From Pelagomonas calceolata (lineage: Eukaryota): a DNA stretch of 64,000 nt. The translations under genes and the position numbers were made by a program. Below the pieces are notes generated by a model, which saw only the letters and a program-made list of their open reading frames with translations, had not been told where the DNA came from and searched no databases. The stretch covers positions 4,340,001-4,404,000 of the forward strand of contig CAKKNE010000005.1 of assembly GCA_918797485.1 (NCBI GenBank), read 5' to 3'. This document shows positions 17,294-58,770 of the stretch, in pieces; the stretch's first letter is position 1; the number at the start of each line of letters is the position of its first letter.

Positions 17294-17962
17294 GGTGGCT
17301 CCTTATACGTGCCGGGCAGCAGCCGACGGGTCGCAGCGATGCGTTTACGTACGTACGGCAAAGCTGTGACCGTCGGGCAGCCCGGTCGCGCCCTAGGCGG
17401 CGTCGGCGCGCGACAAAGCCGGCGGCGCTATGCCAAAACTCCCGTCGCTTCGTGCGGGGCGGAGATTTGCCGTGGTGCACTAGAGAAGCGTGGGAGTGGT
17501 CTCTGGAAAGACACGAGGCCTGCCCGGACGACTTGCTAGTCCATCGATTCGGCTGCTCTTGCTGCTCGCTTCGAGCGCAATTGAAGGCGTCGTGCGCCCT
17601 CCCCCGGGCGACCGGCGGGCTGCTGTGCCGCGTGCGAGCCATGCGCTTGATATATTTTGTGAATGCCATGTCGAAAAGACCGGTTCGGATAAGCCGCATT
17701 AGTAACCAGCAGCGCACCTCCAACCCTGCAGCAAGCAGCACCGCAATTCGGAGCCGCCGAGACAAGGTAACCACCGGCGTCTGCATGCACAGAGCAGCAA
17801 ACACGGCAATGAGAATAAACCTGGTCTTCTTTCAACTGGACGGAGTATCTCCGCGTGAAGAGGATACCTACCGCTGATTATAATTTTTGAGCCTACGGTG
17901 CCACACAAAACGCCCGCCGCGACCGCGACGCGCGCTCGACGTTCCATCGCGCAGGCCATGCC

Positions 17963-19189
17963 ATGACCGACGGCGACTACTACTGGTTCCGGCCGCCGCG
18001 CGAGGGCCGCGCGTCGACGTTCTACGCGACGCGCCACGCAAGTGGACGTATTTGCGAGCAAGGCGAGCAGGCCGTGATAGATATAGAAGATCGGGACCTC
18101 CAGGCCAAGATCGCGGCCTTCAACGCCCTGGTGCACAAGCACCGCGTCTGCCCGGCGCAGACGCTGCCGAACGATCCTAGAAGAGAGAAGCTAGCACTGT
18201 TGCGAGAGGAATCGGCGCGCACTTTGCAAATCTACGACGTTAATGATTTCGTCAAAAGGACGGTCTGGCCCTACTGCCTCGCGGGGGGCGATTTAAGGCA
18301 CGTCGGGTTCCACGTCGTCGATGAGTTCGTACCTTCACACGTATCACATTCTGATATCGAGGACGCGGTCTTCCCGAGCTGCTACGACGAAACGAAGGGT
18401 TCCGTACCGAACTGTTATGCGTGGGAGGATAATGATAAAAAACATGAGCAAAATAGAGAGGTCTGCACGCACGGCGTCACGCTCCTCGATCGCGAGCAGC
18501 TGATTCCGGCCGAAGTCGCGCCCTTACCTCTGCCCGAGTTAGTGAGAAGGACTCTAGTCCCCGGCCTGGAAGCGTTCCTCGAACAGTTAAATCTACCAAC
18601 AGCATTGGACTTCCTCTACGCGAATCGGTATCGCAAAGGGAAACGGAGCTATATAAGGTTCCACCACGACCAGTTGACGAAGATGGGCCCCGTCGTTGTG
18701 GGAGTGTCGTTGGGCGCGACGGCGCACTTGACTCTCGTAAGGACGTGTTCGAGCGACACGAAGCTGCCGGGCCGCGACGGTTCCGTGGATGTTGAATTGA
18801 GAGCAGGTTCGATGTACGTCATGAGCGGCATCGCGCGCTACGGGCTGAAGCACGGCGTGCTCGACGCGTCGGCGCTCGGCGACCGCGTGTCGCTGACGTT
18901 TCGCGAAGTGACGAAGAAGCGGCCCTGGGTGCGGCCGCCCGCGGACATCGTCGGGCCTTTGGTAAGGCACCCGGCGGCTCTGGGCTGCGCGTGCTGCCGG
19001 CGGGCGCCGCGGTGCGGTCGCCGCGACGCCATCGACGCGCCCGCGATCCGCCCGCGTGAGCGCCGCGAGTCGTTCGACGCCACGCGGCGAGAACAGGCGC
19101 CGGGAATCCGCCCGCCAGGGCGCATCGACACCTCAACACGGAACCGCAAGCGCGCCGAGAAGCGCAAGCGCAAGCGACGAGCCCCCTGA
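17963..19189 (+). CDS. AlkB-like 2OG-Fe(II) dioxygenase; possible in-frame intron 19004-19096
   Basis: ANRY..IRFHHD (HxD), GVSLG, LKHGV, RVSLTFR; basic NLS-like tail. Confidence 0.8.
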   Translation: MTDGDYYWFRPPREGRASTFYATRHASGRICEQGEQAVIDIEDRDLQAKIAAFNALVHKHRVCPAQTLPNDPRREKLALLREESARTLQIYDVNDFVKRTVWPYCLAGGDLRHVGFHVVDEFVPSHVSHSDIEDAVFPSCYDETKGSVPNCYAWEDNDKKHEQNREVCTHGVTLLDREQLIPAEVAPLPLPELVRRTLVPGLEAFLEQLNLPTALDFLYANRYRKGKRSYIRFHHDQLTKMGPVVVGVSLGATAHLTLVRTCSSDTKLPGRDGSVDVELRAGSMYVMSGIARYGLKHGVLDASALGDRVSLTFREVTKKRPWVRPPADIVGPLVRHPAALGCACCRRAPRCGRRDAIDAPAIRPRERRESFDATRREQAPGIRPPGRIDTSTRNRKRAEKRKRKRRAP

Positions 19190-19255
19190 CCCGTACCATT
19201 CCGGGGGGCTCCGCTACGCCGCGCAATTTTGATAAGTTTTGTACCATTTACCTAA

Positions 19256-20398
19256 CTAGCGGCTAGCCCCGCTGCACTTTTCCGAATGTTTGTCCCTGGT
19301 CCAGTCTGCCCGTTGGCAGTGAACACCGCAGTACCTCCGGTCCCCACAGCCATCACACACCGCGCATCGGGGCTCGTCCACGTCAGCCTGTCTACCGCAT
19401 ACGTCACACGCGCGACGCTCGAGCTTCCCGAGCCGCTTTAGAGCAGCTTCATTTCCGCGCTTGCTATGATATAGGCGCCAGTAGGCCCACCTTGTTTCGC
19501 GAGCAGCGTTGGTCTCGTATCGCGACCGTCTCGCAAAAGGGGGCATCGGGGGAAAAATAAATCTCTCAACCACAACCGGATCGTCCACTTTAAGAATTTG
19601 AGCCCATACGCGCTCACAGAAGATGTCAAAGATTGCTTTAGTAAAAAAATAGGCTGAGACCATAATGAAACCAATGACGCGCGGGATGCCCATGTTGCGC
19701 AACAGCGCGACAGAACCCAATAATCGACCTCCTGCGACGGGACTTAGAAGATATACAGCAAACAGGAAAGCCAATGGAGCCACGTAGCCGCTCGAGAACG
19801 GCGCCCAGACACCGCCAAAGAAGCCGTAGTAGATAAGATAAATTTGGCCCGCGGCTGCAAGGAGGCGAAGGGATTTAGGCGCATCGCAACTATGAACAGT
19901 AAAGGAGGATGAAATCAACACCGCTCCCCGCAGAGCTGAGGCGACTAAGGGCAACGAATAGCTGTAGGCCACCGCCAAAAAAACCAACGACGCGACGGGG
20001 AAGACGAACAAACTTCCCGCAAGTGTCAGGCCGACCGTCCAGAGCCAATCAAGGGCGAAGCCGACGACGACGCCCGCCATCACGGACCAACTTTGTAGCG
20101 CGAGCAGCCCCTCCGTGTTTATTGTGTGCATGACGTCGAAGTGCTCCATCGTCATGTCGCCAAGATATCCAGATCCCAGGGAAAACAGGAGGAAACCAGT
20201 GTGCCAGCCGAAGAAAAAATTAAACAGCGGACCGAACTCGACACGGTGCAGGGTGTGGCGATCGGGCAGGTCCGGCTTATGAGGCGGCGCTGCAGGCGGC
20301 TCTGTGGCCTCGAGGACGCGATCATTCGTCGCCGGGCGACTCGTAGCCGACTCGTGGTGACTTTTGCGTGTCGCTCTTCGGCGCTGGGCCTTTCCCAT
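19256..20398 (-). CDS. Multi-pass membrane protein with a C-terminal MYND zinc finger
   Basis: Several hydrophobic helices; CDVC...CDGC..RRYCGVHCQRADW...HSEKC. Confidence 0.8.
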   Translation of the reverse strand: MGKAQRRRATRKSHHESATSRPATNDRVLEATEPPAAPPHKPDLPDRHTLHRVEFGPLFNFFFGWHTGFLLFSLGSGYLGDMTMEHFDVMHTINTEGLLALQSWSVMAGVVVGFALDWLWTVGLTLAGSLFVFPVASLVFLAVAYSYSLPLVASALRGAVLISSSFTVHSCDAPKSLRLLAAAGQIYLIYYGFFGGVWAPFSSGYVAPLAFLFAVYLLSPVAGGRLLGSVALLRNMGIPRVIGFIMVSAYFFTKAIFDIFCERVWAQILKVDDPVVVERFIFPPMPPFARRSRYETNAARETRWAYWRLYHSKRGNEAALKRLGKLERRACDVCGRQADVDEPRCAVCDGCGDRRYCGVHCQRADWTRDKHSEKCSGASR

Positions 20399-20648
20399 GA
20401 CTTTTTAGCAGCTGGACCAAAACCTGTTTTTTGACCACCCTGATAGGTATGTATATACATATGTATACATACATGAGTACAAATAATGAATGAATAATTA
20501 ATTAATAACCGAGGAATGAATATCATAATAGAAGAATATATAAAAATATGTACAAATACTATCCCGTACTGCAAAGCGCCGTACCGTCGGGGACGGGAGC
20601 ACGAGGTATGTGTGGTAGGAACCGCCACGATATGTTATATAATTCTTG

Positions 20649-23600
20649 TTACACATCAGTTTCCTCGTCATCTCGCCGCAGCGCCCCTTCCACGATCCGC
20701 GCGAACGCCTCGAAGCCGATCTCGCCGTCATTGATAGAACCGATCTTCGCCTCGAGCGCCTCGGCGAGCTTCGGCCAGTCGCCCGCGTCGGCCTCGGACA
20801 GCCCGGCGCCGCCGCGCTTGACCGCGCTTCGCACGTCGGCCATGGAGATGGCGCCGCGGCCCTCGACGTCGAACAACGCGAAGACGGCCCGCAGTTCGTT
20901 TCGCCGCGCGTCGCCCTTTCTGGCGAACGGCCCGATGCCGCGCCGCGCCAAGCACACGTCGAGGCACTCCGCGAGCTCCGACGGTTTTATCAACGGGAAG
21001 TAGCCTTTGAGAAATCCCTTCAGGGAGAGCGCAGTCTTATGGTCCTCAGCAACAATAACCGCGCGCTGGCGCAGGTAGTCGATGCCTTGAATTGTTTCGT
21101 GCTTCTCGACCTTGTCGAGAGGCGCCATTGAACCAAATTTCGCCTCGGGGGGCAAGGCGGCTTCATACGCCTTGACGAAGGCGTCAATATTTGAAAAAGG
21201 ATAGGGCCCATAAAAACCTCTAGCGGTCGTACGCTTTTTACGCGAAGGGCCCTTCTGGTCGAGCTTGGGTTTTGATGACACTTTCTTGGCCCGCTGCGGC
21301 CGCAACTTGTTGCGCAGGGGCTCGTGGACGCGCGCCACGAAACTTTTTTCAGACGGCTCGTCCACCATCTTAGCGTAGCCGTCGACGCGCCTCTGCCACC
21401 TCTCTAGAGTAGCAGAGACGGTCCGCGCGTGCGCCGCGTTCTCCGTCAGGGGCGGCAACCGATTGACATTTCCGAACGTACAGTCGCCCCACGTCCGGAC
21501 GCTCTCGTCGCACGTCTCGGACGTGTACTCCGAGGACGCAGGCTCCGAGACAGGAGGCTCATCACGCACAACGGGAGGCTGAGGCATGCGCACGGTCCGC
21601 TGCAGCTCCTTAAAAGCGACAACAGACTGCTCACCGGTCGCCCCAAATCTATTAGCCCTTCCGAACTGCTCCTTGAAAAACGATGAAGGCTCCACGAGAT
21701 GCTTCACCTGTTCAGCTTCGGCGGTGAGCATGGCCGCCGTTTTTACTTTGACCGTCTTCTTCAGAGCTTCTTTCGCGCCCCTTTCATTCAATACAGTATG
21801 GTGCGCCGGGTACATGGCCCTCTCGCGGTTGAGACTCCCGACGTTCCAATTATCAGGATCCGCGGGGTCCGGCCGCATCTCGTTCTTCTTGAGTTCCTTG
21901 CGTAGGGCTTCCTCCTTGCGGCGCTCCTCTTCCGTCGGGATTGCTGAATCGTCCAGACTGATATCTACACTTTCGTCGGGTTTCTTCTTCTTCCGCCGCC
22001 GCTTACCCTTCTTGGCCTTGGCCTTCTCCCTGTGCGCCTCGCTGGCCTGGGCCTTCAAGCGGTCGAACTCGGACTCGACCCAGGTCTGTTCGCCTTCCAA
22101 TTGGTGGATTAATCGAGTCCGTTCCTGCTCCTTGGCGGCGTCTGACTCATAAGATGCGATGGACGCCTCGTCCACACGCTCCCTTGCGGCCTGACGAGCT
22201 TCTTCCAACTCCTGGGCTTCTCGCTGTTGCATACGTTCTCTCCGTTTCGTCTCTACTACTTCCTGTAAGATGGTTCTAGCTCTCTGTAAAGTAGCCTCCT
22301 TCCGTCTACGCACATCTTTCCCACTCAGGAACCTCCACGCAGCACTTTTAGAGGCTTTGAGCTTTTGAGCGACGCTTAACCGCCCGGGCGCCGCGAGATT
22401 TCTTAACGCTCTATGGTCCGCATCTCTCCCATATGTTAACGTACCAACGGGTTCACCATCTAACCCCCAAGCTTTTATCGAGCCATCTGTCGAGCAAGAT
22501 ATAAGCCTAGGAGGATCCGCCGTTACTACGACGCAAGTCACGGCACGATCATGCGCGTTCCACCGGTTACAGGTATAGGACGCCAAGCCACTTCTAATAG
22601 GATAGTCTCGCGACGGCTTTAATTGAATATCATTCACCTCGGAGAGAGCATGATCGCGACTCAACTTCCGGCGCGGATTATATCCCATGCGCTTCCATTT
22701 CGGAGAGGCAATGGCCTCTATATTTAATCTTTTGAGCGCATCTTGGACGTCAAAACTCTGAATCGCGCCCCGACTATCGCCCGTGAACACTAAAACGCGT
22801 CCGCTCATGACACCAGGCGCTATTTCCTTGCCACCGTGCAGATCCACAAACGATTGGGAACATGTTGCTGCAGCTCCTCTACGTAACTCGCCATCAATTC
22901 TAGCTGCTTTGCCGTTCTCGAACCGCAACGCGCTCCGTCTTGTTTTGGTGGATATGAGTCGCACACCACTGTCATCGTCCGTATGCACTAAGCAAGGATA
23001 CGGTTTAATAAATGACAGAGAGGACGCCTCGGGCAGTGCCGAACCGTCCCCATCGAAGCACTCGCCGACCAGTAAAAGTGTTTCAAAGTCCCATAATTTT
23101 GTTCTTCCATTCCTATCACTGGTACAGATCAGCCCCTCGTCCCGCGACAGACACACTTGTTGGATGTCGCCGTCGTGGGCATTTGTGGTGTATCTAACTA
23201 GACTATCTTGAGGATCGTCCTCCAGTTCGTCGTAGACGTGGAGCGCGCGGTCCCATCCTGCTGTGACCACTATTCTATCTAACGGGCAGTACGCGACCGC
23301 AGAGCATTCCGCACCATGTTTACCTAAATACATCAATTCACAACCATCTTTGGCTCGTCGTATCTTGACCGTGCCGCTTCGGTCCGTGACGATGCATCTT
23401 CGGCCTCGAGCATCGAAGGACAGGCCACTCACGAGGGAGTCCTCCAGTGTTTCCTCATGTACTAATAACCCCGTCCGCGCGTCCCAGAGCTTTAACGAGG
23501 AATCATGAGCCGTCAAAATGGAGTGCGTTTGCGAGGAATAGTCGATATGTGTGGCTGGCGCCTCCGCATCTCTATGATCGGCAGCATCCAACCAACGTAC

Positions 23601-25539
23601 AATCCCCCGTTTCCCGCCACAAGCCAAGGAAATAGCATTCGACGAGTAGGCCATGGCCTGGCCCGCCGTCGCGGCGTCGGCCAACGCTCGCTTCGTGTGG
23701 TTGTTGTCGTCCCCCTTATGCCTTTGTTTAATGAGCTTCTGGGCCTCCGACACTTCTTCGACTTCCTCCTCGTCGCCTCGCAACAGTTGCTCGGCGCGCT
23801 CGGACGCGAAGCTTCTAAACAGGTCTTCCGCGGCGTCGACGTCCACCCCACATCCCACGGGCTCAACCAGCAGACACGTCTCCGTCTCCAATTGAACACT
23901 ATGAGTGAGGCGTTCCGTCGGCGAGGCGACACTATCTCGCGACGTGTCCCACCAGCTCATCACGCCGTCGTCGTCTAGACTCACACAGAACGCCGCCCCT
24001 CCCGGTGCGCACCTCACACATCTTACCGAGGCGTTGTGGCCGCCCTCCAGCGTGAACATGGGGAACGCCTGTTCCCCCGTGACGCCCCAGCCCCGCACCG
24101 TATACTCGAAGCCGCAACTCACTAATAAAGATTGGTGTCTGTCATAGGACAACGACCGCACTCCAGAAATATGTCCCGTAAGGCACCAGACCTCCTTGCA
24201 TTCGGGTAAGTGCCAGAGTCGTATGGTCTTGTCCAGGGAGCACGTCGCTAATAGTCCAACTTCGCGGCTCATCTCCTTCCTTGAGGAAGGTATATATATT
24301 TCCCGCGGCTGGTCCAATACCAAAGCATCCATCACGGCGTCCGTATGTCCGACCAATGACGGTAGTCTGGCGATGGAGGGCATTTTTACATCTCGATTAA
24401 ACCCGTCGAAGGGTTCCATGCATAGAACATCGATATCCTTGCGCGGCCCGACCAAAAAGCACAGCCGCGACCCTTCGTGGGGGCCCTCCAGGATGCTACC
24501 GGCCCACCAGGCCAATCTAAATGAAGGGTCCCGCAGTCGCACGGCGCCCCGGCATTTTATCGTTTCATCGTTGGGCGACGCTCGCGCCGAGCAGTGGTAG
24601 AATCTTAATGTAAGGTCGGAGCAGAGGACGATCACCAGCTCGTCGCCCTGCGTCGCGGGGGTTGTTCTCTCCGGGCGGCGGGCGTGATGCTCTCGGGAGG
24701 CCTTCTACCCCACCAGTGATCGCGCAGAAGGCAACAAAGACGCCGCGACGCACCGGCGCGAAGGCCACGTCCAGACAGCTCACGCCGGCGTCTTTTAGAT
24801 ACGTGTGCAGCTCCGCGTCCTCCCCGTCGTCGTCAGACACATCATCATCAAGGTTCTCCGCATCTACAACTTCCAGGGCATCCGTATAGACGGGTTTGGG
24901 AGGCAATCGGAGCGCTTGCTGTCGAGGAAAGGGCGGGAACAGGCCGAACGTGCCCGCCGCGCAGACGCAAAGCAGCCGCATCTCGGGCAGCCATCGCAAG
25001 AATTTTAGTGGCCCGTCGCCGCCCTCGCCGGGCTTGTAATCGCCAAATACTTGTTCTTTGTCCGGTCTTATGTCCCTCGGTTCGTAGCGGTCGTGCGCCT
25101 CCCGCTTTTGGCCACCCATCCCGTGCTCGATGACGCAGCGCGTGAACTCGTCCCACTCCAAGCGTTCGTCGCCGTTCACGTCAATACTATCAAAAAGTTC
25201 GCACAGATCGTCGATCGCTTCCAAATTTGGTCTACCAGAACTATCAACTAAGGGCTTGATTTGACCATGTTCGTCCCGCAATTCGGGATCGTCATCAATA
25301 TCATCGTTGTCACTATCAAAATGGGGCCTATCTCCTAGACTCAGGCCCGACATGCGCCGTTTGTTCGCCTCCTGCGTCCAGTCGTTCACTTGGGCTTGTC
25401 TGCCTCTCCTTAACATCACGCGGACGAATTGTGTAAGTGTTAGACCAGCTGTGCCTTCCTTTAAAAAGTCGTCGCGCATCGTCATTAATTCGGAGGCGGG
25501 CAGGCGCATCATCGTGTTCGTGGCTACGTCGGAGGGCAT
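20649..25539 (-). CDS. EF-hand + WD40 repeat protein (WDR49/WDR64-like), one intron 24648-24753
   Basis: Exon 1 has LFDSIDVNGDERLEWDEF. Donor GTGCGT at 24753 and CAG acceptor at 24648 join DVAFAP|GDELVIV in frame. Many GH...WD repeats; C-terminal EF-hands. Confidence 0.8.
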
Positions 25540-26059
25540 GGTTGGTTGCGGGGCCTAGGCGGCTAGGGCTGGCGTTTTGGCTGCTGCCCGCGGGCCCGGC
25601 GGTGGTGCCGGTCGATGGTTATGCGCTGTTCGGGCTGCCCCCAGCCCGGAGGGCCGCGTGGGGTGCCGAGGCAGCTCCGGCGCTATCGAGCTCGGGCTAT
25701 CGTGCGGGGTTGGCCTCGCGGAGCTCTCCCTTGTTGTGATGCGTCCTTCTATCTCTGCTGTGTGGGCGGACGAGTGCTCCTATGTATTTTGAGCTCCTTT
25801 CGAGTCCGGCATCGTCATCACTCGACGTTTTGCTCGGTGCGCTGCGAATTGCCGCGATCAGTCCGAAACGCCAGAATTTGTTGCGCACAACAGTGCAAAT
25901 TACTTCTATACCTTGCTCGTGCAACCAGAGCACGAAACGCAGCTTGTGAGAGCGCTGTCATCACCTCCTTGCCTTTTGCAGGAGTTGCAGTGCCGCGAAA
26001 CGGTCGCGAGAGACACGAAGCGTTGCGTACGCAGCGCCACGGACCCACGGGACGCCGCC

Positions 26060-26530: not shown

Positions 26531-27799
26531 CTAGTTCGCGGAGCCCTGCTGCTTCACCTGGTCGAACATGCCCATGGCCGTCGCGACGACGCCGGAGATG
26601 TCGTTCGGTCGGTCCGGAACGATCACAAGGTTGCTTTGTTTCGCCATCTCGGCCAGCTCCGAGACGTACTTGTCGGCGAGCCGTTGGACCATCGCGTCCT
26701 TGCCGCCCTCTTCACTCACGGCCTCGGCGATCGCGCGGAGACCGTCGGCCGTGGCTTCCGCCGCCATCCGCGTCGAAGCGGCTTGGGCCTCCGCAATCGC
26801 CTTGATCTGGTCGGCCTCCGCCGTTGCCTTCAGGCGCATGCTCTCGGCCTGCCCCTGGGCGGCGTTGATGGCGCCCTGGCGCTCGCCTTCGGACTGGTTG
26901 ATCAATTTCTGGCGGTAGCCCTCGGATTCGAGCACCTCGGCGCGGCGCAGCCGCTCCGCGTTCGACTGCTTCTCCATGGCCTCGCGCGTGCCGCGGTCGA
27001 CGTGGATGTCGGCGATCTCGTAGCGGAACACGCGGATGCCCCAGGGCTGCGACGCCTCGTCGAGCGCTTGCGCGATGCCTGTGTGAACGAAACACGTCGC
27101 CTCGATGGCGTGCAGAGGGACGCCATCGACGCGGTCGCGCGCCAATATTAAGCTTTTCGCGCTCGAGGAAGAGTTGATCAAGCTCTAAATTTCCAACTTC
27201 TTTGCGCATCGCCGACTGCGCGAGCGTCGTGATGGCCCCTTCCGGGTCCTCGATCCCGTAACTCGCCTTGTACGCGTCGACGACGCGCGTGTAGACGGCG
27301 CCGTCGAGGTGGACGTGGACGTTGTCTTTGGTAATGGCCGTTTGGGGATGAATGTCGATGGTCGTCTCTTTCAGGGAACGCTTGTACGCGATCTCGTCGA
27401 TGATCGGAATGGCGAAGCTCAGGCCCGGCAATGCCGTGTGACTAAATTTACCGAAGCGCTCGATCTGCCTGCGCGAGTTCCCGGTTGCGAGGCGGCGGCG
27501 GCGGCGATGTGAAGGCACCATAAACTGGGATTCGGCACCGATCCGGACCACTCCTCCGCTTGCGGCACCATCAACAGGACGGTGTTCCAGTGGCGCCCGT
27601 CTCTGCCGACGGAGATGTCGCGACGCGCGGCGAGCAGCGCGGGATTCGGTGGTGCGCGTTCAGTGCGCGCCCGGCGCGACGCCGAGAGGAGGCCGCGCGA
27701 GGCCATGGTGCTCAGGGCAGCGCCGGCTGCCCGCGGCGCGTGTCTTGCCAGCGCGCCAGGCGCTTGGCGTGCGAGGGTCTGCATCGCGTTCATCATCAT
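26531..27799 (-). CDS. STOML2: Stomatin-like protein 2 (SPFH/band 7), mitochondrial; introns 27469-27548 (GT-AG) and 27079-27142 (GC-AG)
   Basis: Spliced reading VPQAEEW|QIERFGKF...QTAITKDNV...LAQSAMRKEVG...EREKLNI|GIAQALDEASQPWGIRVFRYEI...AERLRRA; Arg/Ala-rich presequence. Confidence 0.85.
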
Positions 27800-42221: not shown

Positions 42222-42347
42222 CCTGTCGTGTTTCTAGTTTCTACCAGTACGCCATCGCCGCGACGGCTAGACGCGACGGCGTCGTGTAGCTACTCTAGAT
42301 AAACGGGACATAGTTGCGTTACTCGGCGCGGAGACGGAAAGGCGTCC

Positions 42348-45103: not shown

Positions 45104-47230
45104 ATGCCGCCGCCGGCCCGCTACCTGCGCAGCCATGCCGAAGGCCTCCTGTTGGAAGGCGGCGAGCCCGGTCTGCGGCCGCTGCTCATCACAGCCGGAA
45201 AAGACGGCGGCGTCGCGTGTCGAGTCGTCCACCGCGACCGGCGGCCGTCGCTGCCGCAAGAAAGTGCGCACCCGTCGCTAGCCGCTCAAACGGCACCGAA
45301 GGTGCGCATCGAGGGCCTTTTTGGTGTGTACGCGTTCAGCGGCGGCCCCTACGCCGCCGTTATATTAGAGAGCGAACCGCTTTTGAAAAGAGACAAATCG
45401 ACGCAAGTCTTCGCCGATGCTAAATTGAGGTGGCCGCGCGACGCCTGTCACGCCTTTCGACTGAGGCGGGCCACGAAGGTCGCCGTCGTGCCCGTCTCGA
45501 ACGCGAACCGGCGGCTCTCGAAGCGCCAAGCCCAGGACGAGGCCCTGTGCCTGCGCCTGCTCGAGAGCGCGCTGCGGAAAAGGCCCTGGGTCTTCTCGCG
45601 CGACTCCGACGCGGCGACGCTGACGTCGACGCGCGCGTCCGACGCGCGGGACTACGCTTTAGCTGAAAGGCAAGCACTGAGACAGCGGGGGTCCATCAAG
45701 GCCGAGGACGCGGCGCGGCAGCGCTTCGAGCGGGCGGATGCGGCGTTCCTGTGGAACCAGCGCGTGCTTGCGCCGGTGGTTTGTTTCGGCGTGGAAATCA
45801 AATCGCGTCGACGGCGTGGAGGGCCGGGTCGCGCGACGCCGATCGCGGCGAGGGCGTGGAGCGCCGTCCGCGAGAGCTCATGCGACGCCGAGAGCGCGAA
45901 CGGGGCCGCGTCGATGGCGTATAGAACACACACAACACAGAAAAAAACAACGCAGGTCGAGGCCGGCGCCGCGGCCTGGTGCTGCGCCTGCGCTTGCATC
46001 GTAGCGACGGCCTGCGATTTGGGGGCGGTCGACGACGCCGAGGACGAGGGCCCCGCGCCCTGTGCGGCGATCGTGTTGACGAGACTAGGTGTGGATACCG
46101 GTGCGCGGCTCGTACGGAGAGGTCTTGGTCGAGATGGGTCGTTATCATCCTACGCCGAGACCGAGGTCTTGGTGGCGGCGGCCGCGACCCCAGATAGACC
46201 CGCGCGGGCGTATGCGTTTACTTTGAGTAGAGCATCACCACCTGTAGCTCTAGAGGACGACGCGCCCTCACAAAGTCGTGGGGCCTTGCTCAAACGCAAA
46301 CTCTCGATATCAAAAAAGGACCTCACGCAGCCGCCGACACCGGTCAACGCCAGGCACGCTAGGACAGACGCTAGAAAATTGGACGGCGCCGTCGAACAGT
46401 TGCTGACAAGGACGAAGACGACTCAAGTGACCGTCGTTGATCTAACAGCGCGGGCGCCGTCCACGTGCTCCGTATCGTCTTTATTAGTGAGGAAGCGCCT
46501 GAAGCAGGCCTGTCTGGCCCTCGCACCAGCCAAGCGCGGCGCTAGAGTGCGCCACGTCGTGGTCGGACCTTCGGAGGCGTTAGCTCAAGTGCCGGTGGCC
46601 CACGACATCACAAGACTCCGAGTCGCGTCGCAAGGTCAACGGCAGCAGAAGAACACGGTGTTAGTTGTTGGCTGCGACGAGGTTGATGAAACCGATTTGC
46701 TACTATGCGACCTCGCCTCAGAAACAATTCTAAAAGCGGCGGAGGACGAAGCACTCGGACCGGACGGTTTCACACCAGCTGATCCAAAGTATGCCTCGTC
46801 CCAGCTCGAGGCCTGCTGGCGGAGGCATGGAGACGGTATATCAACAGTAAGGTGCGGCGGCGGCGCGACCGTGGGATGGAAGCCCTTCGTGAGGTTGGCG
46901 AGAGCGTTACGCGGCAGTCTGTTCGACGGCACGGACCAGGATGGCTTGGACGTGGCTCTTGGTAGAAAAGCACCATCACAACTCGTAAGGGGCGCCGACG
47001 AAAGGACTTATGCGTGGGAGCGCGTCCATTTAACCTACGCGAAGACGGTGGGCGTCTCGCTCGTCGCCGCGGGCGCGTTGCGACTAGCGGCGCCGTCAGC
47101 GTCATGCATGGAAATACTAAAACAGGGCGTCGTCGCCGCTGTTTTAGGTGTCGTCTCCGTCAACGTCCACCAGGTCTGGGACGGGTCCCTGCTGGTTTCT
47201 GCGGCGGGTTCTCGACGCTTCGACGAATAA
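45104..47230 (+). CDS. Divergent SAC1-like phosphoinositide phosphatase, probably catalytically degenerate; in-frame intron about 45779-45955
   Basis: IEGLFGV, FLWNQRVL, GARLVRRGL...YAETE, W..HGDGIS, QDGLDVALG and two C-terminal TMs follow the Sac1 layout. Confidence 0.6.
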   Translation: MPPPARYLRSHAEGLLLEGGEPGLRPLLITAGKDGGVACRVVHRDRRPSLPQESAHPSLAAQTAPKVRIEGLFGVYAFSGGPYAAVILESEPLLKRDKSTQVFADAKLRWPRDACHAFRLRRATKVAVVPVSNANRRLSKRQAQDEALCLRLLESALRKRPWVFSRDSDAATLTSTRASDARDYALAERQALRQRGSIKAEDAARQRFERADAAFLWNQRVLAPVVCFGVEIKSRRRRGGPGRATPIAARAWSAVRESSCDAESANGAASMAYRTHTTQKKTTQVEAGAAAWCCACACIVATACDLGAVDDAEDEGPAPCAAIVLTRLGVDTGARLVRRGLGRDGSLSSYAETEVLVAAAATPDRPARAYAFTLSRASPPVALEDDAPSQSRGALLKRKLSISKKDLTQPPTPVNARHARTDARKLDGAVEQLLTRTKTTQVTVVDLTARAPSTCSVSSLLVRKRLKQACLALAPAKRGARVRHVVVGPSEALAQVPVAHDITRLRVASQGQRQQKNTVLVVGCDEVDETDLLLCDLASETILKAAEDEALGPDGFTPADPKYASSQLEACWRRHGDGISTVRCGGGATVGWKPFVRLARALRGSLFDGTDQDGLDVALGRKAPSQLVRGADERTYAWERVHLTYAKTVGVSLVAAGALRLAAPSASCMEILKQGVVAAVLGVVSVNVHQVWDGSLLVSAAGSRRFDE

Positions 47231-49401: not shown

Positions 49402-50630
49402 ATGCGCGTCACAGCTCTGAGATACGCGCTGCGTCGAGGACCGCGCCAGACGCCGCACCAGACGCCACGCCAGACGCTGCTCTGCCGGCGAGGCCTGCAC
49501 CAGTCGTCGCGGTTCGAGGACACGTCGGTCGCCGCGGTCAACGCCTGGCTCGCCGAGCCGCCGAGCAAGCCGACGTGGACGATTGCCGGCGCCTGCGCGG
49601 CGCACGACGTCTTTGATCTGAACGCGGACGTCGTCGTTGCGGTCGACGAGGGAGACGAGCCGTGCGAGCCGTGGGTCGCGGCGACGCGCATCGCCGTCCC
49701 GGAACCGCCGGTCGCGCTGGGGAGCGGCGCCGCCGACGCGCTGCCCGACGAGCTCGCGGACGAGGCGCTGCTCGCGATGGCGCCCGAGCGCCTGACCTTC
49801 GCGTTGTGCGGCGTGGGCACGGCCGAGACTGTCTTCGAGCGGCTCGAGAGCCTCTTCCCGGGCGCGCGGGCCGTGGCCTGCGCGGCGCCGGCCGTCGCGC
49901 GGCAGCGGCGCGGCGCGGGCGAGGAACGGCTCGTCGGCGCGGTGTTTACGGATTTGCTGGACGTGACGCCGCTCGCGCGGGCGCTGGCCGAGTTCTCGTT
50001 GGTACCTGAGTGGAATCAAATTTCGGGCGCCCTACGCCATCGACGCGATGTGCTTCCGTAGCTGCGTCTGCGCGATGGCGTGGCGATTCCACGCCATCGA
50101 CGCGACGCTGTCCCCGTGGCCGCGTCGGCTCGATGGCGTGGAGGCTCACGAAGTCCACGCAATATATCTAACCTAACTCACTGGTTGATTTTCCACACAG
50201 GACACCGGCGGACCGCACGTTCCGCGCCAACGCGGCCGCCGCGCGGGAGATCTTCCTGCCGTCGAGCGCGCCCTGCCTTGACGGGGGCGATATCACGCCG
50301 GCGGACCAGGCCGTGCCCCTCTTCGTGCTCGACGGCGTGAAGTTGAAGGAGGGGGAAGCTAGAGTCTTCAAGATCTTCGAGCCGCGGTACAAGCTCATGA
50401 TCAAGGAGTGCCTGGACAAGGGCCGGCCGCTGCTCGTCGTCGGCGCGACGGACGACGTCGGCTCGCTCTGCCGGGTAGGAGACGCCACCCACGACGTCGA
50501 CGGCGGCTCAGTCGTCGTCCTCCACTGCGAACGAACTGTCAAGGCCGTCGAGCGGCGGGCGTCGCGCGCCGAGTTTGGGCTCGCGCGAGCGGACCTCGTC
50601 GCCTTCACGAACCCGTACCGCGCCCCGTGA
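49402..50630 (+). CDS. Protein with a C-terminal LON substrate-binding-like domain; intron 49998-50200
   Basis: Splicing GT 49998 to AG 50200 joins the 49402 ORF in frame to ...VPLFVL...FKIFEPRYKLMIKECL; Arg-rich mitochondrial-like N-terminus. Confidence 0.7.
50006..50200 (+). mobile_element. Degenerate introner-like element (same TIR family as 57149-57320)
   Basis: Left end ctgagtggaatcaa; right end cactggttgattttccacacag; internal acgccatcga/cgatggcgt inverted repeats; no intact TSD. Confidence 0.75.
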
Positions 50631-53913: not shown

Positions 53914-56151
53914 TCAGCCGTCGAAGTCCATCGCGAAGTCCTTGTCCGCCTTGGAAGCCTTCTTTTTCTTGGGCTTTTTCGGCTTGGGCGCTGGAGCAGG
54001 CGCCGGCGCCTTCGACCGCTTCTTCTTTTGCTTCGGCTTCGGTTCCGGGGCCGCGGCCGGCGCCGCTTTCAGCCGCGCGGCGCGCGCGGCCCGCGCGGCG
54101 CGCCGGTCCGCAAGGCGCCGCGCGGCCGCAGGCGCGCCCGGCGGCTTGAGCGGCTCGAACGCGACGACGTCCTTGGGCGCGGCGGCGAGGCGCGCGCGCG
54201 CCGCCGCGGCCGCGTCGGCGGCCGACTCGAGGGTCGCGGCGGCGGCTTTCGCGCGCGCGCGCAGCTTCTGCGGGCAGCGCGGCTCCTTCGCGAGCTTTTT
54301 GAGAGCGACGAGCGGGACCAGGGCCAGCTCGGGCAGCGCCGGCGCGTAGCGGTGCAGCTCGAGGAAGTCCAGCAGCTGCTCGAGGGCCTCGCGGCCCAGC
54401 GACGCGCGCGCGCTCGCGTCGCGCTTGTCGCCGCAGTCGAGCTCGCCCCCAAAGTCGCCGCCGTCGTCGACGCCCCCGCGGCCGTCGCCGCCGCCGCCGC
54501 CGCCCCGCGAGCACTCGTCCAGCGTCGCGAGGAGGGGCTTCGTCGTGGGCACGAAGCACTCCGTCGCCGCGGCGACGTCGTGGAGGCAGCGGACGCAGTG
54601 CAGCCGGAAGGGCGCTTTCGAGGGCGCCGCCGCCAGCTCGAGGGCCCCGAAGAGCGTCTGGCAGAGGGGGAAGGCCAGCTCGCCCAGGCGCTCGGGCGCC
54701 GCGTTGCCGCAGACGCACCGCGCCCAGAGCCGCGCGCAGTGTAGGAACTTCCAGGACAGCACCTGCGCGACGTCGTCGGGCGCCCGCGTCGCCAGCGCGC
54801 TCCGGACCTTCAGCGCGAGCTGGCGCACGGCCACGAAGGCCGTGCGGTAGGCCGCGTCGGCGCCGGCGTCCGCGTAGAGGCCCACGAGCGCGTCCTGCAC
54901 GAGGGCGACGCTCGCGAAGGCCTTGCGCGCCTTCTGCGCGCTCGCGCCCCTGCCGGCGACGTCGCGCGCGAAGGCCGCGTAGCACCGCCGCAGCGCGTGC
55001 GCCTCGACGGTCTCGTCGCCACGCGCATCGACCGCCAGCGCCCGCGTGTGCGCGAGGACGGCCCGGAGCGCGGCGACGGCGTCGCGCTGCAGCCGCGTCT
55101 CCCGCGCCACCATGGCCACGCGCTCCTCGTCGGCCTCCTCCGGCGCCGGCTCGACGACGCGGCACAGCAGCCCGCAGAGCGCGCGGCACGTCCGCGGCGC
55201 GAGGTTCGCGTCCACGACGAGCCAGGGCGCCCAGGGCGCCACGGCCTCGAGCGCGACGACCCGGAGCCGCGTCGCGCGCTCGGCGTCGTCGCCCTTGAGC
55301 GCCTTGAGCAGGCCCACGAGCACGCTCCGCGCGAGGGCCCGGACGCGGTCCGGCGCCCGCGCCGCGTCCGCCCCGCCCGCGAGCGCCCGCAGCCGCGGCC
55401 CCAGCGCCGCGAGCGCGTGGCGCGCGCAGGCCTCGCGCGCGGCCGCGTCGGCGAAGTCGACGGCGGGGCCCTCGACGCCGTCGTCGTCGTCGTCGTCCGA
55501 GCTCGCCGGCGCCGACGCGACCGAGTCGGCCGAGTCGGCGTCGCCGTCGTCCGTCGGCTGCGCGCGGCGGCGCCGCGCGCGCCGCGACGCCGGCGGCGCC
55601 GCGTCGCCGCCGCAGGCCGCGCGCAGCAGCGCGACGAGCCGCTTCGTCGCGCGGAACGACGTCGCCCCGTCCGCGGCGAGCGCCGCGACGTCCTCGACGG
55701 AGACGACGCGCCGCGCCGCCGCCGCCGCCTCCTCGCCGGCGTCGTCGTCGTCGTCGTCCGCGGGATCCTCGTACGCGAGCAGGCCCTCGTCGTTCTCCCG
55801 CAGGTAGTCGTAGAACTCGGGGTCCGACGCGCGGAGCGCGTCGAGCTCCGCGCGGTGGTCGGCCGCGGCGGACGCCGACGACGCCGCCGACGACGCCGAC
55901 GACGCGTCGTCCGGCGCGTCGGCCGGCGCCGCGAGGTGGTCGCCCGCGAGGAACGCGTCGTCCGGCGCGTCGGCCGGCGCCGCGAGGTGGTCGCCCGCGA
56001 GGAACGCGTCGACGTCCATCGCCTTGGCCGCCGGCTTCGGGGGCCGCGCGGGCACGCGCGCCTGCGCCTTTTTCAGCAGCTTGCGCTTCGCCCTCGCCTT
56101 CGCCTTGAGCTTCTCGGCCCTGCCCGTCGTGTTCTTGCCGTGCTTGCCCAT
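53914..56151 (-). CDS. NOC2L: Nucleolar complex protein 2 (Noc2)
   Basis: LDALRASDPEFYDYLRENDEGLL; AYRTAFVAVRQLA; VLSWKF; PFRLHCVRCL; ALPELA. Confidence 0.85.
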   Translation of the reverse strand: MGKHGKNTTGRAEKLKAKARAKRKLLKKAQARVPARPPKPAAKAMDVDAFLAGDHLAAPADAPDDAFLAGDHLAAPADAPDDASSASSAASSASAAADHRAELDALRASDPEFYDYLRENDEGLLAYEDPADDDDDDAGEEAAAAARRVVSVEDVAALAADGATSFRATKRLVALLRAACGGDAAPPASRRARRRRAQPTDDGDADSADSVASAPASSDDDDDDGVEGPAVDFADAAAREACARHALAALGPRLRALAGGADAARAPDRVRALARSVLVGLLKALKGDDAERATRLRVVALEAVAPWAPWLVVDANLAPRTCRALCGLLCRVVEPAPEEADEERVAMVARETRLQRDAVAALRAVLAHTRALAVDARGDETVEAHALRRCYAAFARDVAGRGASAQKARKAFASVALVQDALVGLYADAGADAAYRTAFVAVRQLALKVRSALATRAPDDVAQVLSWKFLHCARLWARCVCGNAAPERLGELAFPLCQTLFGALELAAAPSKAPFRLHCVRCLHDVAAATECFVPTTKPLLATLDECSRGGGGGGDGRGGVDDGGDFGGELDCGDKRDASARASLGREALEQLLDFLELHRYAPALPELALVPLVALKKLAKEPRCPQKLRARAKAAAATLESAADAAAAARARLAAAPKDVVAFEPLKPPGAPAAARRLADRRAARAARAARLKAAPAAAPEPKPKQKKKRSKAPAPAPAPKPKKPKKKKASKADKDFAMDFDG
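55902..56003. repeat. 51-bp tandem duplication within NOC2 (17 aa x2)
   Basis: The sequence encoding DAFLAGDHLAAPADAPD occurs twice exactly. Confidence 0.9.
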
Positions 56152-56300
56152 GGCTGCTCGTCGCCAACCTTTTTGTGCCGTGTCGTTGCGCCTTCAAATG
56201 AAGCCGAACGGTTGGCTGTTAAAACGCGATAATCCGCTCGCTTTAGCTGAATTGCCGCCAGCCTTTTAGGAGTGCTCGCTGGCCCAGCGCGAGCGTGGAT

Positions 56301-56357
56301 GCTAGCGGCCTGTAAGACACTAGGCATCCTAGTGTCTTACCTGCACAGGCCGCTAGC
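56301..56357. promoter_or_regulatory. Long inverted repeat built from two copies of the GCTAGCG...GACACTAG motif in a divergent promoter
   Basis: gtaagacactagg-cat-cctagtgtcttac (13-bp perfect stem); gctagcggcctgt also pairs with acaggccgctagc further out. Confidence 0.6.
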
Positions 56358-56535
56358 TCGCGTCCTCTGCTCGTGAAAAAAGCCAGCCTAGATTGACAGT
56401 CTAGCCACCTCATCCCTAGCAAGCAATCCAAAGTCAGCTCGGAGGCCTGCCCAGGCTGCCCATATAGCTTAAGAGCTGCCCAGGCTGCTGGTCCGCATCA
56501 GCAGCATGTATGAGACAAGGCAGGATAACTAGCAG

Positions 56536-57714
56536 ATGGGACCGCCCTCGTCGTGGCCGCTCCTGCTGCTGGGGTGGGCGGCCGGCGCGGACCTCGCCAC
56601 GATGGCGCCGGCCTACTGCCCGCCGCACGCGGCCCGGACGCGCGGCCGCGAGCTCTGCCCCACGGACCCGGTTTGCGCGGCGAGCGTGCAACGCTTCGCG
56701 ACGGCCAAGCGCCACGCGCCGCCGCGCGTCGCCGTGTTACTGCGAGGCGTCGCCTTCCGGAACTGGGGCTCGCGCGACACGGAGGGCTCCTGCTGCCGGG
56801 GCACGGAGGCGTCGCAGCGGTCCGTCGTCGAGTCCTGGGACGAGCACCTCTTCGCGCCCCTGGAAGCGCGTGGCTACGAGGTGAATATATACGTGGCGAC
56901 GTACCGCTGCTCGAACGGCAAGGACTGGGTCGAGCGCGACCTCCTCGCGCAGTTGGCGCCGCGCCTCCGCGGCGTCTACCTGGGCAGCTACGACAACACG
57001 ACGCAATCCGCGACGCACGCGCGGGCCCTCGCGCTGGCCCACGCGGAAAGCAGTTCGCGCGAGGACCAACCCGAAGGCGCGGGCAAGGCGGCGCGCGCGT
57101 TCGAGCACGTCTTCATCATGCGGCTCGACATGGCGCTCACGCGGTCGACTGTGTGGAAATCAAAATTTTACGGCGCATTCCTGCTGAATCATCGCGTCGT
57201 CCTCCGCGCCATCGACGCGACGCCTGCTCGATGGCGTGGCGATGCCGGTTCCTCGCCGCTCGACCGAGCCAGGACGGCCGCGTCATCGCGCACCCGAAGC
57301 ACTGGTTGATTTCCACACAGGCGGTCGAATCTGACCTGCCTGCTCGCGCAGGACGGCCCCATGACGCGGAGCGAGGCCGGCAACGCGGACGGCTTCAGCT
57401 ACCTCCCCGGGCGGTTCTTCGCGTGCGCGGTGCGCGCGCGCGCGGCCCTGTACTACTCGCACGACTGGGTCGCGAGCGTGCTCTCGCTCGCGGGCGTCGA
57501 CGCGCCGGCCGCCGGCGCGCCCGTGCTCTACGCGCACGCCGTCGGCGGCCGCGCGCAGGACGCGTGCGCGACGCGGGCCTGGCGCCACGAGAAGCGGAGC
57601 GCCGAGACGGCGGCCCGGTGGCTCCGCGCGCGCGGCCGCGCCGCCGCCGCCGACCGCGCGCGCGCGGCGTGCTACGCCGCCCGGCGCCCGTCGCGCGACT
57701 ACCAGAACCGCTAG
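56536..57714 (+). CDS. Secreted or membrane hypothetical protein, possibly glycosyltransferase-like; intron 57141-57320
   Basis: Signal peptide; RVAVLLRG..FR and VFIMRLD; removing 57141-57320 joins ORF 56536 in frame to ORF 57361-57714. Confidence 0.7.
57141..57328 (+). mobile_element. Introner-type non-autonomous DNA transposon (172 bp) with 15-bp TIRs and an 8-bp TSD
   Basis: TSD gcggtcga at 57141-57148 and 57321-57328; TIR ctgtgtggaaatcaa (57149-57163) / ttgatttccacacag (57306-57320). Confidence 0.92.
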
Positions 57715-57751
57715 TAGTAGTATTCCTGCCCTTAGGGGACGCCCCCGCCCC

Positions 57752-58770
57752 CTAGCGCTTGAGCGGTCCGGCCTTGGCGGCGTTGCCGATGACCTTGGCC
57801 GCGTTCGCGCGGATCTGGTCCCAGTCGCCGGCCTGGACGGCGGCGGGGTCGAACAAGGGGGCCACGAGGCCGACGGACGCGGCGCCGTTCATGAGGAAGT
57901 CGCCCGCGTTGTCGAGGTCGACGCCCGACGTCGGGTTCAGCCGCAGCATGGGCAGGGCCGCGGAGACGGCCTTGACCCACGCGTGCGCGCCGGCGACGCC
58001 CGGGAAGATCTTCTGCAGCGGCGCGCCGAGCTTGTAGGCGTTGTACGCCTCCGTCGGCGTCTGGCAGCCCGGGATGATCACGATGTCGCGCTGCACGCAC
58101 CACTCGACGACCTCGGGCACGAGGACGGGCGTGATGATGAACTCGGCGCCCGCGTCGCACGCGGCCTCGGCGTCCGTCGTGTTCATGATCGTGCCGCAGC
58201 CGACCATGACGTCGCCGTCGTACTTGGCGCGGAAGTCGGCGAGCGTGTCGAGGCAGCCCGGCGTCGTCAGCGTGAACTCGGCGATCTTGAAGCCGCCCTC
58301 GATCGCCGCCGTCATGGCCTTGGGGCACGCCTCGGCCGTCGCCGTGCGCAGCACGGCGCAGACGCGGTCGCGCGCGAAGCGGTCGAGCACGCTCTCGCGG
58401 TTCGCCTCGCTCTTCGCGTAGAGCGACCTGCGCGCGCGTCGGTCGGTGGGTGTGTGTGTGTGTGGCGTCGCCGGCGTTCCCGCGGCGGCGGCCGCTCTCG
58501 CGGGTCCCGGGGTCGTGCGGGCGTGCGTCGCGGCGCGGCGGCGCAAGCGGGTCCCGGGGTGCGCTCCGCCAGCGAGTCGCGGCGGCTCGCGCGCGACGTG
58601 TCGTGCGACGCATGCCGTTCTCGCGCGCGTCCGCTCGCGTCTTGTATCTAGCTCGATCCTGTGGCGTGATGAGAGATGACGCCGCGTGCGCACCTGCTCG
58701 CAAGCGCCGCACCGTAGCGTCCGGCGGCGGCCCGCGCGACTGGTCTCGCTGCTCGTGCCACGGCTGCCAT
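57752..58770 (-). CDS. eda: KDPG/KHG aldolase with a mitochondrial-like presequence; intron 58428-58693
   Basis: MAAVARAARP...LASR|SLYAK via GTGCGC...CAG; AVLR, EFTLTTP, VGCGT, PGCQTPTE, KIFP, PTSGV. Confidence 0.9.

What the first reader, a model, noticed from the sequence alone, without database searches (positions are those of the whole stretch)
57141..57328. Intact introner: a transposon that can splice itself out as an intron
Seen: a 172-bp element with perfect 15-bp TIRs and a perfect 8-bp TSD (gcggtcga) interrupts a gene and carries an in-frame stop. The right TIR ends in CAG (acceptor). The first TSD copy offers GC at position 1 (exact restoration) or GT at position 4 (adds one codon); both restore the frame. 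Known: introner elements with TIRs and a TSD-derived splice site are described in Aureococcus. Inference: a recent insertion of a family that may still be creating introns here; an 8-bp TSD would fit a hAT-like transposase acting in trans.
Basis: partly seen in the sequence, partly recalled or inferred. Interest (0 to 1): 0.85.

Follow-up and report, generated by a model that had tools for sequence, protein, structure and literature searches.

The report
Transposon-made intron in Pelagomonas alga
A small mobile DNA element sits inside a gene of the ocean alga Pelagomonas calceolata, and RNA reads show it cut out as an intron without a scar; it likely belongs to an intron-making family already catalogued in this species, so it is a clean example and not a discovery.

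Summary
Observation confirmed: a 172-bp element (57149-57320) with perfect 15-bp TIRs, a perfect 8-bp TSD and an in-frame stop. The host protein matches a Pelagomonas calceolata protein at 100%. Ten RNA reads from one sample show a GC..AG junction that removes the element plus one TSD copy and restores the gene exactly; a rival GT donor three bases on is not excluded. The family is abundant: 65 copies in 121 metagenome loci, commonest length 203 bp, 8-bp TSDs, and GT/GC at TSD position 1 on the coding strand in 39 of 39 copies with a coding call. Homologues lack the insertion, and an empty allele probably exists in wild DNA. This kind is published for this species: 956 putative introners, and a 340-copy, 202-bp TIR family classed as hAT that co-opts its 5' site and carries its 3' site. 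'Intact' and 'recent' need qualifying: this copy lost 31 bp, and same-site alleles carry five different deletions. No transposase was found. The scan's earlier notes held other introners, none of this family.

The parts
56536..57140 (+). Exon 1 coding part of the host gene (uncharacterised protein with a hydrophobic N-terminus, no Pfam family)
   Evidence: 100% identical over 201 aa to P0006 = CAH0377881.1, Pelagomonas calceolata
57141..57320 (+). The intron as seen in RNA: first TSD copy plus the element, 180 nt, GC..AG
   Evidence: joint 57140 to 57321 in 9 reads from 8 start places (X21) and 1 read (X24)
57141..57148 (+). First TSD copy (intronic); donor GC at 57141-57142; rival donor GT at 57144-57145
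   Evidence: the public model P0006 has one extra Arg, which fits the GT donor
57149..57320 (.). Non-autonomous TIR element (MITE), 172 bp, a deletion derivative of a 203-bp subfamily
57149..57163 (+). Left TIR, 15 bp; on the minus strand it also ends in CAG, so the element can supply an acceptor in either orientation; third in-frame GT at 57153
   Evidence: 23 forward and 16 reverse of 39 copies with a coding call
57289..57290 (.). Site of a 31-bp internal deletion (subfamily positions 142-172), ending inside a 12-bp palindrome
   Evidence: (table 5c)
57306..57320 (+). Right TIR, 15 bp; holds the in-frame TGA (57307-57309) and the acceptor AG (57319-57320)
57321..57328 (+). Second TSD copy (exonic, start of exon 2)
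57321..57714 (+). Exon 2 coding part of the host gene, to the TAG
50006..50200 (.). Second, more diverged relative in the window: related TIR, different internal subfamily, no 8-bp TSD visible
   Evidence: (85% over the length of the L030 copy)

Best explanation
The 172-bp element is a non-coding TIR element that RNA reads show removed, with one copy of its 8-bp target duplication, as a GC..AG intron from a Pelagomonas calceolata gene; it likely arrived by DNA transposition driven in trans by a probably hAT-type transposase that was not found. Step 1 (inferred): a cut-and-paste transposase inserted a roughly 203-bp MITE into the exon and duplicated 8 bp. Step 2 (shown in sequence): both TIR ends read CAG outward, so an acceptor is supplied in either orientation, and the first two bases of the upstream TSD copy give the donor. 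Step 3 (shown in 10 reads from one sample; the spliceosome as agent is inferred): splicing removes the first TSD copy plus the element, so the second copy restores the original codons and the stop is lost. Step 4 (shown as a family pattern; cause inferred): surviving copies have GT or GC at TSD position 1 on the coding strand, which fits selection for spliceable insertions, probably helped by a palindromic GTnnnnAC-like target bias. Step 5 (inferred from read-through peptides): after insertion this copy and its alleles lost internal pieces independently; the site probably still segregates as filled or empty in wild populations.
For: Anatomy. Junction 57140 to 57321, skip 180, GC..AG: 9 reads from 8 starts with up to 71 letters on the short side in X21, 1 read in X24, all with the first mate on the minus strand. 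Family: 65 TIR-paired elements in 62 of 121 metagenome loci; 16 of 65 are 203 bp; 28 of 65 have a perfect 8-bp TSD and 42 of 65 at most one mismatch; none has a perfect duplication of 6, 7 or 9 bp; shuffled pairs give 0.03. 42 of 42 TSDs have GT/GC at position 1 on at least one strand against a 33% background. Of 32 one-sided cases, 29 had a coding call and all 29 put the donor on the coding strand (p 4e-9). On the coding strand position 1 is GT/GC in 39 of 39 and position 4 in 9 of 39; the acceptor is CAG in 38 and TAG in 1. Homologues P0035 (contig 34.6 kb), P0015, P0039 and P0003 run through the site with no insert and no extra residue. The joined form stands in contigs of two marine runs guessed to be DNA; in X13 an 821-nt contig has 98 letters on the short side. 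A at TSD position 7 in 13 of 39 against 4.7 expected, and AC at 7-8 in 7 of 39 against about 1 expected (p 8e-5); hobo, a hAT element, has an 8-bp TSD with motif GTNCGNAC (PMC3276498, passages). Published: 956 putative introners in P. calceolata with GT/GC donors, AG acceptor and TIR (PMC9481584, supplement passage); fam2 with 340 copies, 202 bp, TIR DNA/hAT, 'co-opt 5' carry 3'' (PMC12130899, Dataset S2 row).
Against: Only 10 junction reads, from one sample, where flank depth in X21 is about 50 and 46. Full splicing at this joint would give roughly 30 reads by my rough estimate, so intron retention or a second donor may be common; 94 joint rows were not shown, and a 177-nt skip with fewer than about 30 reads could be among them. 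The public gene model uses the GT at 57144. No transposase in 27 long window ORFs or 101 ORFs near family copies, and no genome was held to search. An 8-bp TSD with a GT..AC motif also describes P elements. The published tables give no sequence, so identity with fam2 is inferred from length, TIR, abundance and mechanism. 'DNA' for X10 and X13 is the tool's guess, and joined proteins in public assemblies may come from transcripts.
Confidence: 0.93

Rival explanations
1. Same introner, but the main donor is the GT at TSD position 4 (57144), adding one Arg; the GC junction is a minor form.
For: The public model P0006 has the extra Arg. GT is favoured over GC across the family, 29 against 10. Junction reads are fewer than flank depth predicts, and 94 joint rows were hidden.
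Against: The only listed joint that links the two exons is the 180-nt GC one. None of 38 joined close alleles has the extra residue. Position 4 shows GT/GC in only 9 of 39 family copies, near background. Three filled alleles have a changed residue at the codon that overlaps this GT: P0012 and P0064 read Pro and P0026 reads Ala, which implies the GT is lost there.
Confidence: 0.2
2. The insertion is a poorly spliced, mildly harmful MITE: most transcripts keep it and meet the stop codon, so it is a leaky disruption and not yet an efficient intron.
For: 9 junction reads against a depth near 50 in X21, and 1 against about 10 to 17 in X24. GC is the rarer donor. The TIRs are predicted to pair in the RNA and cover the acceptor (z -2.7).
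Against: Reads from other copies pile on the element, so retention could not be measured. Filled alleles occur on several upstream haplotypes and have had time to diverge, which argues against strong harm. Coding-strand donors in 39 of 39 copies indicate that surviving copies are spliceable.
Confidence: 0.25
3. There is no empty allele in nature: the intron is fixed in the species, and joined sequences are spliced transcripts or assembly shortcuts across the repeat. A variant of this: empty alleles are real but arose by intron loss.
For: The kind of X10 and X13 is only guessed. Filled and joined alleles are mixed on the exon-1 tree as much as shuffled labels (8 changes against 8.3), as expected if the two are DNA and RNA views of the same alleles. 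A graph assembler could bridge an 8-bp direct repeat only with short words, but chimeric records exist (P0072 looks like one). With exact restoration, loss through cDNA gives the same letters as the ancestral site.
Against: In X13 one contig runs at depth 8 from exon 1 through exon 2 into the neighbouring aldolase gene, which in the two RNA runs reaches 5 to 8 times the host gene's depth. Element depth in X10 and X13 is over a thousand times flank depth, against roughly 70- to 250-fold in the RNA runs. Joined proteins come from contigs of up to 5,398 nt, longer than this mRNA. Recombination would also mix the labels on the tree.
Confidence: 0.2
4. An old ordinary intron whose ends resemble a TIR and TSD by chance or by later decay.
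For: None found, beyond the copy's internal deletion.
Against: About 95% identity to copies in unrelated genes, a fixed 8-bp duplication across the family, and no intron at the site in homologues.
Confidence: 0.01

Closest known systems
Pelagomonas calceolata introner fam2 (Gozashti et al. 2025, PMC12130899, Dataset S2 row seen)
   Same: Same species; 340 copies; 202 bp; 13-bp TIR call; donors gt:281, gc:42; acceptor ag:323; 'co-opt 5' carry 3''; classed TIR DNA, hAT, with best Repbase hit hATv-2N1_EHux.
   Different: No sequence in the files searched (12 of 14 supplements), so identity is inferred. The row gives no TSD length (NA); here it is 8 bp. This copy is 172 bp.
Putative introner elements of P. 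calceolata (Guerin et al. 2022, PMC9481584; main-text passages, supplement passage)
   Same: 956 putative elements; GT and GC donors, AG acceptor, conserved TIR; intron length peak near 210 bp, which fits 203 plus 8.
   Different: The passages seen do not describe the TSD rule, strand bias, alleles or deletions. The logo figure is not held as text and one picture-only supplement could not be searched.
Aureococcus anophagefferens introner elements (Huff et al. 2016; paper not held; known here through passages of PMC9860276, PMC7789003 and PMC9481584, and otherwise recalled)
   Same: MITE-like, about 200 bp, TIR and direct repeats, canonical splice motifs; fam1 is listed as co-opting the 5' site and carrying the 3' site.
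   Different: Another genus; sequence homology to this family was not tested.
Aureococcus sp. introner that adds 12 bp (Gozashti et al. 2022, PMC9860276, Fig. 2F legend)
   Same: 8-bp TSD; the same geometry is available here through the GT at 57153 (4 bp of element plus 8 bp of TSD).
   Different: No such joint was listed in the RNA reads here; the listed joint restores the gene exactly.
hAT superfamily non-autonomous elements (hobo as the reference; PMC3276498 passages)
   Same: 8-bp TSD, short TIR, palindromic target bias with T at 2 and A at 7.
   Different: No partner transposase found; P elements share the 8-bp TSD and a GT..AC target motif.

Membership tests
Introner (intron-generating transposable element) | Repeated family with copies at unrelated gene sites | tested here: met
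   65 copies in 62 of 121 loci, beside many unrelated Pfam families; element depth far above flank depth
Introner (intron-generating transposable element) | Removed from RNA at spliceosomal-type ends | tested here: met
   GC..AG joint in 10 reads of one sample; efficiency and minor donors not measured
Introner (intron-generating transposable element) | Absent from the same site in homologues (a gain) | tested here: met
   P0035, P0015, P0039, P0003 and paralogues read through the site; P0035 and P0005 come from contigs of 34.6 and 9.3 kb
MITE / non-autonomous TIR DNA transposon | TIRs, fixed-length TSD, short, no coding capacity | tested here: met
P. calceolata fam2 of Gozashti et al. 2025 | Species, length near 202 bp, TIR, 5' site co-opted and 3' site carried | tested here: met
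P. calceolata fam2 of Gozashti et al. 2025 | Sequence identity to the published family consensus | not testable with these tools
   TIR motif not found in the supplements searched; three internal subfamilies share this TIR
hAT superfamily | 8-bp TSD | tested here: met
   not unique to hAT
hAT superfamily | Palindromic nTnnnnAn-type target bias | tested here: inconclusive
   A7 in 13 of 39 (p 4e-4, one of 56 cells scanned) and AC at 7-8 in 7 of 39 (p 8e-5), but GT/GC on the antisense end 10 of 39, p 0.14; T2 is confounded by splice selection; P elements have a similar motif
hAT superfamily | Cognate hAT transposase in a long copy with the same TIRs | tested here: inconclusive
   none in 27 window ORFs or 101 locus ORFs; no genome held, so the search was small
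Self-splicing introns (group I or II) | Catalytic RNA core | not tested
   No Rfam search was run; the GC..AG ends, small size and free internal deletions argue against it (inference)

The most novel reading that the evidence does not exclude
This site is a segregating intron presence/absence polymorphism in wild Pelagomonas calceolata, made by a hAT-type MITE whose own palindromic GT..AC target bias and double-CAG ends pre-adapt it to become an intron. The five different deletions at this one site (10, 17, 23, 31 and 58 bp), all ending at the same palindrome about 30 bp from the right end, would be footprints of repeated transposase cutting and gap repair. One of the most abundant ocean algae would then be a population-scale natural experiment in intron birth, shortening and fixation.
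Probability: 0.25. Interest if true: 0.5.

Novelty: already known. Interest (0 to 1): 0.22.

Why it matters
As an instance it matters little: introners with this mechanism are catalogued in this species. It is a useful worked example with RNA support, and it suggests that a public gene model has the donor wrong by one codon. Three side results could interest a specialist if they hold genome-wide: a strict rule that the donor is TSD position 1 on the coding strand, a hAT-like or P-like target bias that would hand the element its donor, and a likely filled/empty polymorphism with recurrent deletions at one breakpoint. Allele frequencies of such sites would let one test how new introns spread or are purged.

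Tried and rejected
No whole genome was held, so there is no genome-wide count and no search for long transposase-bearing copies. The ratio of GC to GT donor use and of spliced to unspliced RNA remains unmeasured. Huff et al. 2016 is not held. Viral contigs: 53 loci matched the 15-bp motif; none resembled the family by blastn, and the 4 motif pairs found had no 8-bp duplication, so these are taken as chance. Solo-TIR metagenome loci were truncated or short degenerate copies or chance matches; none led into a transposase. Pfam found no family for the host protein pieces or P0003; the protein atlas gave no answer, so the host's function is open. The exon-1 protein tree did not cluster filled alleles (8 changes, 273 of 500 shuffles as low; bootstrap not settled; 11 of 50 alleles with under 170 aa before the junction were left out), so it cannot order gain and loss. 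P0072, a joined allele on a 407-kb contig, was set aside as evidence because it reads into the element's right end further on and looks chimeric. Estimating intron retention from copy-specific letters was dropped because in X24 it exceeded flank depth. One search for P. calceolata intron polymorphism (listing only) showed no such paper; a second listing shows that introner presence/absence work exists for Micromonas (PMC4540971, listing and start of abstract only) and new-intron population work for Daphnia. Earlier scan notes: none by sequence; eight on other genomes by words, none of this family.

Full report
Observation. The 8-mers at 57141-57148 and 57321-57328 are identical, the 172 bp between them have TIRs perfect for 15 bp, and the right end reads CAG. 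The gene frame from ATG 56536 stops at 57307-57309 if unspliced. The TIR motif occurs 3 times in the window against 0.03 expected.

Organism and host gene. The first 201 codons are 100% identical to P0006, named by its source as Pelagomonas calceolata CAH0377881.1. That public model is 333 aa and has one extra Arg at the junction, which fits the GT at 57144. The protein has no Pfam family. Its neighbours are a Noc2 gene and a KDPG-type aldolase gene. No whole genome was held.

Splicing. Of 24 runs listed, 4 were laid on 56300-57900. Raw poly(A) reads show the joint 57140 to 57321, skip 180, GC..AG, in 9 reads from 8 start places in X21 and 1 read in X24; both runs are one sample. This is the exact-restoration form. 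It is the only listed joint that links the two exons, but 94 joint rows were not shown, and by my reading of the shown rows the cut-off was near 30 in summed support. Flank depth in X21 is about 50 upstream and 46 downstream, so 9 reads is fewer than full splicing at this joint would give. Intron retention or a hidden 177-nt class is therefore possible and was not measured. The TIRs are predicted to pair in the RNA (z -2.7); whether that helps or hinders splicing is untested.

The family. A motif scan of 2 of 64 parts of the metagenome collection gave 121 loci, with about 6000 estimated in all. 62 loci held 65 TIR-paired elements of 61-207 bp, 16 of them 203 bp; the other 59 had no pair and include chance matches. 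28 of 65 have a perfect 8-bp TSD and 42 of 65 at most one mismatch; perfect duplications of 6, 7 or 9-12 bp number 0; shuffled pairs give 0.03. At least three internal subfamilies share the TIR and the 203-bp length. All 42 TSDs start with GT or GC on at least one strand, against 33% by chance. A codon-usage model trained on window genes, which gave the expected strand in 7 of 7 check stretches, made a coding call for 29 of the 32 one-sided cases, and all 29 put the donor on the coding strand. Among the 39 copies with a coding call, position 1 is GT/GC in 39 (29 GT, 10 GC), position 4 in 9, the acceptor is CAG in 38, and the element lies forward in 23 and reversed in 16. So the family rule is: donor from TSD position 1, acceptor from whichever TIR is downstream, message restored exactly. 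This supports the GC donor at this site. Against GT/GC-starting background 8-mers, TSD position 7 is A in 13 of 39 (4.7 expected) and positions 7-8 are AC in 7 of 39 (about 1 expected), while antisense GT/GC overall is not significant (10 of 39, p 0.14). That hints at a palindromic target bias like hobo's GTNCGNAC or the P element's GTCCGGAC (PMC3276498, passages).

Empty site and age. More distant homologues read straight through the site (P0035, P0015 group, P0039 group, P0003), so the insertion is a gain. Among 50 close alleles with a readable junction, 38 are joined, 11 read into the element at the same site and 1 is the public model. These counts are not frequencies, since I opened clusters whose representatives were mostly joined and repeats break assemblies. 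The joined form also stands in contigs of two marine runs guessed to be DNA; the depth pattern favours DNA, though the tool warns that such depths are no copy numbers. Filled and joined alleles are mixed on the exon-1 tree, which fits recombination, chimeric assembly or RNA-derived records alike. The window copy differs from the subfamily majority by 5 substitutions and a 31-bp deletion. Read-through peptides of filled alleles imply net deletions of 10 (P0012), 17 (P0016, P0063, P0104), 23 (P0009), 31 (P0087, as in the window) and 58 bp (P0064), all resuming at element positions 170-173; four other filled peptides were too short to place. Across 43 subfamily copies, 15 of 76 called deletions end at positions 169-172, inside a 12-bp palindrome, against about 1.5 expected; alignment ambiguity in short copies and shared ancestry weaken that count. 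The insertion is thus old enough to have decayed in several ways, and 'intact' holds only for its ends.

Transposase. None among 27 long window ORFs or 101 ORFs from the family-type loci among the first 80 of the 121, and no family copy in viral contigs. Present activity was not tested.

What is known. Guerin et al. 2022 (PMC9481584; main-text passages and one supplement passage) report an intron length peak near 210 bp and 956 putative introner elements in P. calceolata with GT/GC donors, AG acceptors and conserved TIRs. Gozashti et al. 2025 (PMC12130899; passages and Dataset S2 rows) list 11 families for the species; fam2 has 340 copies, 202 bp, a TIR DNA/hAT label and 'co-opt 5' carry 3''. 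Gozashti et al. 2022 (PMC9860276; passages and supplement rows) describe the same mechanisms and an Aureococcus form that adds 12 bp. Huff et al. 2016 could not be read. No published sequence was available to confirm identity with fam2; a picture-only supplement, figure logos and 2 unsearched files may bear on this and on whether the TSD rule is already stated for this species.

Verdict. A real, well-supported introner in a species where such elements are already counted in the hundreds and already labelled hAT. Novelty: already known. Interest 0.22, for the clean RNA-backed example, the probable one-codon correction, and the leads on polymorphism, target bias and recurrent deletion.

Noticed in passing
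window 50006-50200: A second relative with the same kind of TIR but another internal subfamily (85% to the L030 copy); its flanks show no 8-bp duplication.
   Followed up: partly
window 45775-45955: A degenerate TIR-like start at 45787 inside the SacI-domain ORF, followed about 150 bp later by a CAG-ended A/C-rich stretch; possibly an old introner relic in an intron.
   Followed up: no
window 27094-27160, 8549-8662, 42239-42289: Weak profile matches to the subfamily (E 0.003 to 0.02), perhaps older relics.
   Followed up: no
proteins P0004, P0005, P0038, P0040-P0044: A paralogous gene reads into a different intron about two codons upstream of this site, whose end translates like the family's right TIR, and P0004 reads family-type sequence at a further site: likely independent insertions into the same gene family.
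   Followed up: partly
window about 57065-57090 (host exon 1): Wild alleles carry 1 to 4 copies of a 7-residue repeat just upstream of the junction, in both filled and joined alleles; the X13 contig appears to hold a 42-bp longer form.
   Followed up: partly
subfamily positions 168-179 (window 57290-57296 keeps the right part): Deletion breakpoints pile up at a 12-bp palindrome about 30 bp from the right end, and left breakpoints pile up near positions 28-33; cause unexplained.
   Followed up: partly
L090:301-472: A 172-bp copy with the same 31-bp deletion as the window copy, at another site and without a TSD: a recurrent deletion, a mobile short variant or a chimeric contig.
   Followed up: no
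family copies L001-L121: Two subfamilies with about 50% internal identity, and a third at about 63%, all keep a length near 203 bp, which suggests a length constraint; a link to nucleosome spacing is recalled from the introner literature, not tested.
   Followed up: no
window 12000-26000: A low-GC stretch (55-59% against 64-79% elsewhere) holding long intron-poor ORFs (an Ig-like Hydin/CFAP65-type protein, a WD40 protein).
   Followed up: no
window 6017-11854: Two neighbouring ankyrin-repeat RING-finger ORFs with near-identical parts, apparently a local duplication.
   Followed up: no
window 55900-56010: A near-exact 51-bp tandem duplication in the 5' coding part of the Noc2 gene.
   Followed up: no
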